This document shows, piece by piece, positions 17,364 to 17,517 of a stretch of DNA of 64,000 bases. The notes under the pieces are model-generated. The model made no database searches, had not been told where the DNA came from, and was given only the letters and a program-made list of their open reading frames with translations. Made by a program: the position numbers and the translations under genes. Numbering within the stretch: the stretch's first letter is position 1; each line of letters opens with the position of its first letter. This DNA is from Escherichia coli (GTDB lineage: Bacteria > Pseudomonadota > Gammaproteobacteria > Enterobacterales > Enterobacteriaceae). Where the stretch lies: the NCBI RefSeq assembly GCF_030013595.1, contig NZ_CP122768.1; one strand, 5' to 3'.

Positions 17364-17436
17364 GCCGATTTAACTTAGCAGACAAAGCAACTGACTTGTA
17401 ATCACCGGGTCGCCAGTTCGATTCCGGTAATCGGCA
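17364..17436 (+). tRNA. tRNA-like gene (degenerate; anticodon loop reads UGU, Thr-like)
   Basis: Perfect 7-bp acceptor stem gccgatt/aatcggc and canonical T-loop ttcgatt, but no G18G19 in the D-loop and only 3 bp pair in the anticodon stem. Confidence 0.4.
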
Positions 17437-17442
17437 CTATAT

Positions 17443-17517
17443 GCGGGTATCGTATAATGGCTATTACCTCAGCCTTCCAAGCTGATGATGCGGGTTCGAT
17501 TCCCGCTACCCGCTCCA
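17443..17517 (+). tRNA. tRNA-Gly (anticodon UCC)
   Basis: Full cloverleaf with CCA end; anticodon loop cuUCCaa; closely resembles E. coli glyT from memory with an acceptor-stem base-pair change. Confidence 0.8.

What the first reader, a model, noticed from the sequence alone, without database searches (positions are those of the whole stretch)
17364..17517. Phage tRNA pair: canonical tRNA-Gly(UCC) preceded by a degenerate tRNA-like element
17443..17517 folds into a complete tRNA-Gly(UCC) with CCA. The element 6 bp upstream (17364..17436) has a perfect acceptor stem and T-arm, but its D-loop lacks GG and its anticodon stem has only 3 base pairs around a UGU loop. It may be a decayed tRNA or an unusual one. 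Direct repeats ttccgagga (17301 and 17350) flank the upstream promoter region. In Stx phages this position holds tRNAs that support late and toxin gene expression.
Basis: seen in the sequence. Interest (0 to 1): 0.45.

Follow-up and report, generated by a model that had tools for sequence, protein, structure and literature searches.

The report
Prophage tRNA-Gly beside decayed tRNA-Thr relic
A lambdoid prophage in this E. coli chromosome carries one intact glycine tRNA gene next to a mutated, probably dead copy of the host's threonine tRNA gene, which is an ordinary case of gene decay and not a new kind of RNA.

Summary
The core observation holds. 17443-17517 is a canonical tRNA-Gly(UCC), called by ARAGORN and scoring 65.6 bits in Rfam. 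It matches host glyT at 73 of 75 bases, and the two differences form one compensatory pair.

17364-17436 is a real tRNA homologue (Rfam 45.9 bits, cutoff 29). It is a diverged copy of the thrU-type tRNA-Thr(UGU). Related prophages keep that gene 100% identical to host thrU at the same spot, 3 nt upstream of tRNA-Gly.

The window copy differs from its closest intact relative at 11 sites:
- A10·C25 mismatch in the D stem.
- G19→A in the D loop.
- GUA→CCG at 42-44, leaving a 3-bp anticodon stem.
- CCA→CUA at the 3' end.

Its cloverleaf is worth -8.6 kcal/mol against -20.2 for a competing fold. ARAGORN rejects it at default settings. PGAP leaves it unannotated in all 13 complete E. coli genomes that carry it.

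Among carriers it varies as much as the non-coding leader, while tRNA-Gly never varies. The best reading is a tRNA pseudogene beside a working tRNA-Gly.

The "direct repeats" are the two arms of a conserved leader hairpin supported by covariation, and they lie downstream of a conserved promoter-like site. Interest is low.

The parts
17262..17289 (+). Promoter-like site: TTGAAA, 16-nt spacer, TAATAT. Probably the tRNA module's own sigma-70 promoter (inferred).
   Evidence: The consensus scan finds it. Both hexamers are invariant in the alignment with diverged relatives (A3). A TATTAT or TAATAT hexamer sits 6-9 nt upstream of the leader stem in all 17 distinct leader types. The scan as a whole finds no more sites than shuffles give, so the support comes from conservation and not from the scan.
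17297..17361 (+). Structured leader hairpin. Its arms are CGGUUCC-GA-GGA and UCC-GA-GGAACCG.
   Evidence: The inverted repeat is 17297-17308 / 17350-17361 (I3). The fold is -19.8 kcal/mol, z = -2.1. Across 17 distinct arm pairs from related loci, 90.9% of cells are paired, 7 of 11 pairs change on both sides, 0 of 500 shuffles reach this, and slid controls are far lower.
17364..17439 (+). Decayed thrU-type tRNA-Thr(UGU), including the former CCA end, now CTA. Probable pseudogene.
   Evidence: Rfam scores it 45.9 bits, against 73.8 for thrU and 69.8-71.4 for intact phage copies. ARAGORN rejects it at default settings and accepts it only with lowered thresholds. It differs from the closest intact relative at 11 sites. 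The cloverleaf is -8.6 kcal/mol against an MFE of -20.2. PGAP does not annotate it in 13 genomes.
17440..17442 (+). 3-nt spacer TAT between the two tRNA genes.
   Evidence: It is invariant in all Thr-Gly modules aligned and the most common junction in IMG/VR copies.
17443..17517 (+). Intact glyT-type tRNA-Gly(UCC) with encoded CCA.
   Evidence: ARAGORN calls it. Rfam scores it 65.6 bits. The cloverleaf is the MFE at -26.4 kcal/mol, z = -2.9. It matches host glyT at 73 of 75 bases, and the two differences are the compensatory pair C6-G66 to U6-A66. It is identical in all carriers and in 80-87% identical relatives. PGAP annotates it as tRNA-Gly.
13669..14052 (+). Context: late-gene antiterminator Q. 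It is followed by a strong terminator-like hairpin at 14190-14221, a tR' candidate.
   Evidence: Pfam PF06530 matches at E = 5.8e-54. The terminator scan finds the hairpin.
16136..17182 (+). Context: DNA methyltransferase immediately upstream of the tRNA module.
   Evidence: Pfam PF01555 matches at E = 4.9e-45. The same gene precedes the Thr-Gly pair in relatives.
18269..19306 (+). Context: lysis cassette of two holins and an M15 endolysin, downstream of the tRNA module.
   Evidence: Pfam PF16931, PF05449 and PF13539 match. The PGAP annotation of the near-identical genome agrees.

Best explanation
The locus is a small prophage tRNA module. It consists of a promoter-like site, a structured leader hairpin, a relic of a thrU-type tRNA-Thr(UGU), a 3-nt spacer and an intact glyT-type tRNA-Gly(UCC). 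It sits between the Q antiterminator / accessory-gene region and the lysis cassette of a lambdoid prophage integrated next to ssrA.

Shown:
- The Gly gene is a canonical tRNA, almost identical to host glyT.
- The upstream element is a homologue of tRNA-Thr(UGU) that is intact in sister prophages.
- In this lineage it has accumulated changes that break the D-stem closing pair (G10A), the G19 tertiary contact (G19A), two of the five anticodon-stem pairs (G42C, U43C) and the encoded CCA (C75U).
- The changes at 42-44 and 49 also create a 9-bp competing hairpin (41-49 with 56-65).

Inferred:
- The Thr copy no longer works as a tRNA and is a pseudogene carried along because it lies between the promoter and leader and the still-selected tRNA-Gly.
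- The module is transcribed from its own promoter and also by Q-dependent late read-through.
- RNase P and 3' processing release tRNA-Gly, which adds GGA-decoding capacity.
For: Homology and synteny:
- The element is 83% identical to chromosomal thrU.
- It occupies the tRNA-Thr slot of the Thr-TAT-Gly module that PGAP annotates in relatives.

Loss of tRNA features:
- Four non-standard pairs in the Rfam alignment.
- Rfam bits fall from 70-74 for intact copies to 44-48.
- ARAGORN at default settings finds none of the three haplotypes, yet finds every intact relative.
- PGAP annotates only tRNA-Gly in the carrier genomes.

Thermodynamics:
- The cloverleaf is -8.6 kcal/mol against an MFE of -20.2 for the window copy.
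- For thrU the values are -21.5 and -22.8.

Relaxed constraint:
- Against MB06234, identity is 95.7% for the methylase, 74% for the leader, 84% for the element, 100% for tRNA-Gly and 97.5% for the next 200 bp.
- Among the carriers, variable sites number 5 of 181 in the leader, 3 of 76 in the element and 0 of 75 in tRNA-Gly.
- Three pairs are broken, which equals the neutral expectation of 2.8 in simulation.

Explanation of the compensatory pairs:
- U6·G67, U6-A67, A22 and G49-C65 all occur in otherwise intact phage thrU-like genes in IMG/VR.
- The compensated pairs can therefore predate inactivation.

Rarity:
- Only three haplotypes exist.
- They occur in 13 of 5,426 complete E. coli genomes, 5 IMG/VR contigs and 3 metagenome contigs, and in none of 50,697 phage records.
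Against: - Doubly changed but still paired positions exceed the neutral expectation (2 in haplotype A, p = 0.03; 3 in haplotype C, p = 0.003).
- Two of the three polymorphisms among carriers turn G·U into Watson-Crick pairs (67 and 65), so Rfam bits rise from 43.7 to 45.9 to 47.8. Some continuing selection on the acceptor and T helices is therefore not excluded.
- The anticodon loop, T loop, acceptor stem, discriminator A73 and the positions I recall as ThrRS identity elements (G1-C72, C2-G71, G35, U36) are all intact.
- Rfam still scores it above threshold, and ARAGORN accepts it with relaxed thresholds.
- No expression or charging data were available.
- RNAfold ignores modifications and tertiary contacts.
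- tRNAscan-SE itself was not run. PGAP's silence is only a proxy for it.
Confidence: 0.75

Rival explanations
1. The element is a functional but non-canonical tRNA-Thr(UGU). It is processed, has CCA added by the host CCA-adding enzyme, is charged by ThrRS and decodes ACA/ACG despite a loosened hinge and a 3-bp anticodon stem.
For: - It has a perfect acceptor stem, an intact CUUGUAA anticodon loop and an intact T loop.
- Rfam scores it 45.9 bits against a cutoff of 29.
- ARAGORN accepts it at lowered thresholds.
- Compensatory pairs exceed the neutral expectation.
- ACA is about twice as frequent in prophage late genes as in the neighbouring host genes: 13.9 against 7.1 per 1000, from crude ORF calls.
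Against: - The cloverleaf is 11.6 kcal/mol less stable than the competing fold.
- G19 and G10 are lost, two consecutive anticodon-stem pairs are broken, and the CCA is mutated, whereas every intact relative encodes it.
- Polymorphism density is as high as in the non-coding leader.
- Sister prophages keep this tRNA 100% identical to host thrU, so function seems to demand near-invariance.
- The default gene finder and PGAP both skip it.
Confidence: 0.12
2. The element has been repurposed as a tRNA-like RNA that is not used in translation. It could be a decoy for a host tRNA-targeting nuclease, or a folding and processing helper for the co-transcribed tRNA-Gly. Selection would act on the acceptor helix and on the new 41-49/56-65 hairpin.
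For: - Four of the eleven changes (42, 43, 44, 49) all strengthen a single new hairpin that stacks on the retained acceptor stem.
- The helix-preserving polymorphisms at 65 and 67 fit selection on structure.
- The variant persists in unrelated strains from pig, cow, poultry and human.
Against: - T65C in haplotype C weakens the new hairpin (MFE -18.9 against -20.2) while improving the T stem, which is the opposite of selection for the new hairpin.
- The lineage is shallow, with only three haplotypes, so there is too little variation to show constraint.
- No known family matches apart from tRNA.
- No experimental hint was found in the literature searches.
Confidence: 0.08
3. The degenerate features are sequencing or assembly errors in an otherwise normal tRNA-Thr gene.
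For: None beyond the clustering of three adjacent substitutions at 42-44.
Against: The same sequence, or one differing at 1-3 sites, recurs in 13 independently assembled complete genomes, 5 IMG/VR contigs and 3 metagenome contigs.
Confidence: 0.01

Closest known systems
Host thrU-tyrU-glyT-thrT operon of E. coli (tRNA-Thr UGU and tRNA-Gly UCC)
   Same: Intact prophage tRNA-Thr copies are 100% identical to thrU. The prophage tRNA-Gly matches glyT at 73 of 75 bases, differing by one compensatory pair. The order Thr then Gly is the same.
   Different: The prophage module lacks tyrU and thrT and joins Thr to Gly with a 3-nt TAT spacer. It has its own promoter-like site and leader hairpin. In this window the Thr copy differs from thrU at 13 of 76 positions and no longer passes a default tRNA finder.
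Thr(UGU)-Gly(UCC) tRNA module of lambdoid prophages and phages (e.g. vB_EcoS-683R6, phi467, SerU-LTIIb, many E. coli prophages)
   Same: The position is the same, downstream of Q (often after the same methyltransferase) and upstream of the lysis genes. The spacer, the tRNA-Gly and the leader architecture are also the same. About 284 of 5,426 complete E. coli genomes have a copy with this leader end.
   Different: In those records the first gene is an intact tRNA-Thr annotated by the depositors or by PGAP. Here and in 12 other genomes it is degenerate and unannotated. Leader and element together form a divergent island (74% and 84% identity) inside flanks that are 95-100% identical.
tRNA genes ileZ-argN-argO upstream of stx in Stx phages such as 933W (from my own knowledge; the literature search found no open paper to cite)
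   Same: tRNA genes are placed between the Q/pR' region and the lysis genes of a lambdoid phage. They decode codons that are uncommon in the host.
   Different: The tRNA identities differ (Thr/Gly, not Ile/Arg). No toxin genes follow: the PGAP ORF at 17635-18033 has no Pfam match. One of the two genes is decayed.
SerU-LTIIb prophage 'tRNA-Arg' (KU052038, 1122-1194)
   Same: It is also a thrU-derived gene in the first slot of a Thr-Gly module after the same methylase, and it is also drifting away from thrU.
   Different: Its anticodon has changed from UGU to UCU. It keeps a 5-bp anticodon stem (A31-U39 became the wobble pair G31·U39), G18G19 and CCA. It scores 57.5 bits and is still called a tRNA by ARAGORN.

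Membership tests
Canonical bacterial elongator tRNA (element 17364-17436) | 7-bp acceptor stem with a discriminator base | tested here: met
   GCCGAUU/AAUCGGC is fully paired and followed by A73 (I9).
Canonical bacterial elongator tRNA (element 17364-17436) | D arm with a G10-C25 closing pair and G18 G19 in the loop | tested here: not met
   There is an A10·C25 mismatch. The D loop is AGCAGACA, with G18 kept and A19 in place of G19.
Canonical bacterial elongator tRNA (element 17364-17436) | 5-bp anticodon stem closing a 7-nt loop with U33 and a purine at 37 | tested here: not met
   The loop CUUGUAA is canonical, but only 3 of 5 stem pairs form. A27·C43 and C28·C42 are mismatched.
Canonical bacterial elongator tRNA (element 17364-17436) | T arm with G53-C61 and a UUCGAUU-type loop | tested here: met
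   G53-C61 and the loop UUCGAUU are present. The stem has G49·U65 and A52·C62, and the A·C mismatch is also in genuine thrU.
Canonical bacterial elongator tRNA (element 17364-17436) | Recognised by standard tRNA gene finders | tested here: inconclusive
   ARAGORN at default settings does not call it, but does with relaxed thresholds. Rfam RF00005 scores 45.9 bits, above the gathering score of 29. PGAP, which uses tRNAscan-SE, annotates nothing there in 13 genomes. tRNAscan-SE itself was not available.
Canonical bacterial elongator tRNA (element 17364-17436) | The cloverleaf is the favoured or near-favoured fold | tested here: not met
   The cloverleaf is -8.6 kcal/mol against an MFE of -20.2. 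For thrU the values are -21.5 and -22.8.
Canonical bacterial elongator tRNA (element 17364-17436) | Expressed, processed and aminoacylated | not testable with these tools
   This needs tRNA-seq, Northern blots or acid-gel analysis of a carrier lysogen.
thrU-type tRNA-Thr(UGU) lineage (homology, not function) | Sequence homology to thrU, UGU anticodon, and the slot 3 nt upstream of glyT-type tRNA-Gly | tested here: met
   It is 83% identical to thrU over 78 nt in about 5,400 genomes. A gap-free alignment shows 13 differences in 76 nt. The junction with tRNA-Gly is the same as in intact modules.
glyT-type tRNA-Gly(UCC) (17443-17517) | Complete cloverleaf, UCC anticodon, encoded CCA and near-identity to host glyT | tested here: met
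   ARAGORN calls it. Rfam scores it 65.6 bits. The MFE is the cloverleaf. It matches glyT at 73 of 75 bases with one compensatory pair.
Stx-phage tRNA/toxin module | tRNA genes between Q and the lysis genes of a lambdoid phage | tested here: met
   Q lies at 13669-14052, the tRNAs at 17364-17517, and the holins and endolysin at 18269-19306.
Stx-phage tRNA/toxin module | ileZ/argN/argO-type tRNAs followed by stxAB | tested here: not met
   The anticodons are UGU and UCC. No toxin gene lies between the tRNAs and the holin. The only annotated ORF there (17635-18033) has no Pfam match.

The most novel reading that the evidence does not exclude
Two more novel readings remain open. (1) The degenerate element is not dead. 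It could be kept as a tRNA-like RNA with an intact acceptor helix, T loop and anticodon loop but a remodelled hinge, acting either as a decoy against a host tRNA-targeting defence nuclease or as an unusually flexible decoder. (2) The conserved GA/GA leader hairpin is an undescribed cis-regulatory element of prophage tRNA operons.
Probability: 0.1. Interest if true: 0.6.

Novelty: new member of a known kind. Interest (0 to 1): 0.2.

Why it matters
The practical value is for annotation. The element is a recognisable tRNA-Thr relic that current pipelines silently skip in at least 13 complete E. coli genomes.

It also shows that, within the prophage Thr-Gly module, the Gly(UCC) gene is the one under unbroken constraint. 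The Thr slot is expendable or evolvable: it has decayed here, and in SerU-LTIIb its anticodon has switched to UCU.

This bears on what temperate phages gain from carrying near-copies of host tRNAs. The covariation-supported leader hairpin at the start of these modules is a small lead on how prophage tRNA operons are transcribed or processed.

None of this changes current understanding of phage tRNAs.

Tried and rejected
- **Repeats as duplication or att scars.** I considered the TTCCGAGGA repeats as duplication scars, att-like sites or promoter-flanking repeats. This is rejected: the 9-mer pair is near chance, and the two copies are the arms of a conserved inverted repeat.
- **Single templated mutation.** I considered one quasi-palindrome template-switch event as the origin of the 42-44 and 49 changes. 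This is not supported. The changed patches are separated by unchanged bases (45-48) that do not match the putative template, so at least two events would be needed.
- **Compensatory pairs as proof of current function.** This was weakened when the same pair states (U6·G67, U6-A67, A22, G49-C65) turned up in otherwise intact phage copies.
- **Search for intermediates and wider distribution.**
  - Two lineage-specific patterns in IMG/VR found the same 5 loci.
  - The metagenome scan found 3 contigs, all haplotype A.
  - The scan of GTDB species representatives for T6-bearing intermediates found nothing.
- **Remnants of further tRNAs in the leader.** None were found down to Rfam E = 1.
- **Literature.** Four searches found nothing on this module. 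The prophage sRNA paper PMC12803456 does not mention tRNAs.
- **Codon usage.** It gives only weak support for demand. GGA is 14.3 per 1000 codons in late genes against 12.3 in the host genes sampled, and ACA is 13.9 against 7.1, from crude ORF calls.

Full report
**Setting**

The window is E. coli chromosome. It matches porcine ETEC strains such as ETEC1732 at 100% over the query region. It contains ssrA (tmRNA, 43396-43758, minus strand) and the pheA leader.

A lambdoid prophage lies to the left of ssrA. In order it carries:
- integrase and early genes;
- replication genes;
- antiterminator Q (13669-14052, PF06530);
- a strong terminator-like hairpin (14190-14221);
- an ompC-like porin on the opposite strand (14242-15339);
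- a DNA methyltransferase (16136-17182);
- the finding itself;
- two holins and an M15 endolysin (18269-19306);
- terminase, head and tail genes.

This is not an Stx phage and no toxin gene follows.

**Check of the observation**

ARAGORN finds exactly one tRNA in the window, tRNA-Gly(UCC) at 17443-17517. Rfam's tRNA model scores it 65.6 bits. It also scores 17364-17436 at 45.9 bits against a gathering score of 29, with E = 1.3e-6 for the whole window. Both elements are therefore real and more than chance.

- a perfect acceptor stem;
- D loop AGCAGACA without GG;
- only three anticodon-stem pairs around CUUGUAA, anticodon UGU.

It also corrects several details:
- The D stem has an A10·C25 mismatch.
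- The T stem has G49·U65 and A52·C62, so it is not perfect.
- The 9-mer TTCCGAGGA lies at 17300 and 17349, one base off the stated positions. It is close to chance as a bare repeat.

**What the first element is**

Related prophages and phages have a gene at this exact slot that depositors and PGAP annotate as tRNA-Thr. It is followed after TAT by the same tRNA-Gly, often after the same methyltransferase.

Those intact copies are 100% identical to chromosomal thrU of E. coli K-12. The A52·C62 mismatch is native to thrU.

The prophage tRNA-Gly differs from host glyT only by a compensatory C6-G66 to U6-A66 pair. The module is thus a compact thrU + glyT derivative.

The window copy aligns without gaps and differs from thrU at 13 of 76 positions. 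It differs from the closest intact phage copy (SerU-LTIIb tRNA-Thr) at 11 positions:

| Change | Effect |
|---|---|
| C6U with G67A | compensatory, pair kept |
| C13U with G22A | compensatory, pair kept |
| G10A | breaks the 10-25 pair |
| G19A | removes the partner of C56 |
| G42C, U43C | break two anticodon-stem pairs |
| A44G | no stem pair lost (variable region) |
| A49G | gives a G·U pair |
| C75U | CCA becomes CUA |

**Evidence that it is decayed**

- *Gene finders.* ARAGORN at default settings rejects all three haplotypes and accepts every intact relative. It accepts the degenerate forms only with lowered thresholds.
- *Annotation.* PGAP annotates tRNA-Gly but nothing at the element in every carrier genome examined, while annotating tRNA-Thr in relatives.
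- *Model scores.* Rfam gives thrU 73.8 bits, intact phage copies 69.8-71.4 bits and the degenerate haplotypes 43.7-47.8 bits.
- *Folding.* The cloverleaf with non-standard pairs removed is worth -8.6 kcal/mol, against an MFE of -20.2. The MFE fold has a 9-bp hairpin (41-49 with 56-65) created by the changes at 42-44 and 49. For thrU the cloverleaf (-21.5) is within 1.3 kcal/mol of the MFE.
- *Divergence.* Against the relative MB06234, identity is 95.7% in the methylase, 74% in the leader, 84% in the element, 100% in tRNA-Gly and 97.5% in the next 200 bp. The element has diverged at a substantial fraction of the rate of the non-coding leader, while the neighbouring tRNA has not changed at all.
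- *Polymorphism.* Among carriers, variable sites number 5 of 181 in the leader, 3 of 76 in the element and 0 of 75 in tRNA-Gly.
- *Broken pairs.* Three pairs are broken, which equals the neutral expectation of 2.8 in simulation.

**Evidence that gives pause**

Doubly changed yet still paired positions exceed the neutral expectation: 2 in the window haplotype (p = 0.03) and 3 in haplotype C (p = 0.003).

Only three haplotypes exist:
- A, the window form.
- B, the SE11 form, with G67 and an intact CCA.
- C, the C311/APEC/NCCP form, with U65C giving G49-C65.

Two of the three polymorphic sites convert G·U pairs to Watson-Crick pairs.

However, a sample of 116 phage-borne thrU-like genes from IMG/VR shows the same states in otherwise intact tRNAs:
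- U6·G67 in L026, L037 and L076;
- U6-A67 in L036;
- A22 in L056;
- G49-C65 in L102 and L112;
- C65 alone in L142.

These pair states therefore circulate in functional relatives. They can have been inherited or acquired by recombination, and do not require selection after the inactivating changes. Leader plus element form a divergent island between near-identical flanks, which fits import from a diverged lineage.

I put about 0.75 on a non-functional relic and about 0.12 on a working but odd tRNA-Thr. About 0.08 goes to a repurposed tRNA-like RNA and 0.01 to assembly error, leaving a few per cent unassigned.

**Distribution**

- The degenerate form occurs in 13 of 5,426 complete E. coli genomes, from pigs, cattle, poultry and humans.
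- It also occurs in 5 IMG/VR contigs and 3 metagenome contigs.
- No record in the phage collection has it; the best match there is 86.5% identical, an intact tRNA-Thr.
- No GTDB species representative matched the one pattern tried, which required the T6 state.
- About 284 complete genomes carry a Thr-Gly module with this leader end.

**The repeats and the leader**

The two TTCCGAGGA copies are the arms of an imperfect inverted repeat, CGGTTCCGAGGA / TCCGAGGAACCG, at 17297-17308 and 17350-17361.

The same architecture precedes tRNA-Thr in diverse Thr-Gly modules:
- an outer helix GGUUCC/GGAACC;
- a conserved 2x2 GA/GA internal loop;
- a G-rich/C-rich inner helix;
- a variable apex.

The support from 17 distinct arm pairs is as follows:
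- 90.9% of cells pair.
- 7 of 11 pairs change on both sides, for example C-G to U-A in the outer helix.
- No shuffle out of 500 reaches these values.
- Slid registers drop to 23-65% paired.

The arms were extracted by anchoring on the motif, which favours pairing somewhat.

A -10-like TATTAT or TAATAT lies 6-9 nt upstream of the stem in all lineages. In the window it is TAATAT at 17284-17289, with TTGAAA 16 nt upstream, and both hexamers are invariant in alignment A3.

In a relative whose array starts with tRNA-Ile, the same -10 lies directly before the tRNA with no hairpin, downstream of a terminator that follows Q.

From this I infer that the module has its own promoter, that transcription starts at the base of the leader stem, and that Q-dependent late transcription also reads through it. 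The function of the hairpin is unknown. Rfam has no match for it.

**Function of the intact gene**

tRNA-Gly(UCC) reads GGA (and GGG). Crude ORF calls give GGA at 14.3 per 1000 codons in late genes against 12.3 in the host genes of the window. ACA is 13.9 against 7.1. This is weak evidence.

The stronger argument for function is the complete invariance of tRNA-Gly across lineages whose flanks differ by up to 35%.

**Verdict**

This is a known kind of thing, a prophage tRNA module with one decayed member. It has a modest new detail in the conserved leader hairpin. Interest is low.

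Noticed in passing
window 17297-17361 (and L002, L004-L006, L036, L037, L049-L051, L077, L079, L083, L084, L091, L095): A conserved leader hairpin lies immediately upstream of tRNA-Thr in prophage Thr-Gly modules. It has an outer helix GGUUCC/GGAACC, an almost invariant GA/GA internal loop and a G/C-rich inner helix. Covariation supports it (7 of 11 pairs change on both sides). A -10-like hexamer sits 6-9 nt upstream. There is no Rfam match and the function is unknown.
   Followed up: partly
L001 (KU052038, SerU-LTIIb) 1122-1194: The first tRNA of one Thr-Gly module in this LT-IIb prophage is a thrU derivative whose anticodon has changed from UGU to UCU, so it is annotated tRNA-Arg. 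It also has a C11·A24 mismatch and scores 57.5 Rfam bits. This is a second way the Thr slot drifts while Gly stays fixed. The same record has a second, intact Thr-Gly pair at 3028-3178.
   Followed up: partly
window 9922-11228: There is a 1307-bp insertion relative to the near-identical ETEC1732 prophage. It is an IS3-family element, with an rve transposase ORF at 9964-10854 and an ALIL frameshift pseudoknot at 10780-10896. By coordinate mapping from the ETEC1732 annotation, it appears to interrupt the DnaC-like ATP-binding replication gene. The prophage in this window may be replication-defective.
   Followed up: partly
window 43396-43758 and 42636-42834: ssrA (tmRNA, 292.8 bits) lies just beyond the tail-fibre end of the prophage (the integrase is at the far end, 387-1622), so ssrA is the likely attachment site. 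An Rfam IS009 match (213.9 bits) lies in the tail-fibre-assembly region just inside the prophage end.
   Followed up: no
window 8091-8279: Rfam isrK (63 bits) and C4 antisense RNA (84 bits) lie side by side just upstream of a Rha-family regulator gene. This resembles the P1/P7-type antisense control of an antirepressor region.
   Followed up: no
window 14242-15339 (minus strand): A full-length OmpC-like porin gene (PF00267, E = 1.7e-154) is carried as an accessory gene between Q/tR' and the methyltransferase, transcribed against the late operon.
   Followed up: no
window 17635-18033 and 17879-17898: PGAP annotates a GTG-start 132-aa hypothetical protein here that has no Pfam match. The stretch contains a strong terminator-like hairpin (AACCGCCG...CGGCGGTT followed by T8). 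In relatives this slot holds TerB/DUF3927 genes. It may be non-coding here.
   Followed up: no
window 19303-20159: This segment has no match in the ETEC1732 prophage, where about 235 bp lie instead. It sits between the endolysin and the HNH endonuclease gene. The following 6 kb is only 88% identical, so the late region is mosaic.
   Followed up: no
L061, L122, L140 (IMG/VR): Some viral contigs carry only the 3' part of a thrU-like tRNA-Thr, from about position 27 to CCA, preceded by unrelated sequence. These look like att-site duplications of tRNA-Thr made by integrating elements.
   Followed up: no
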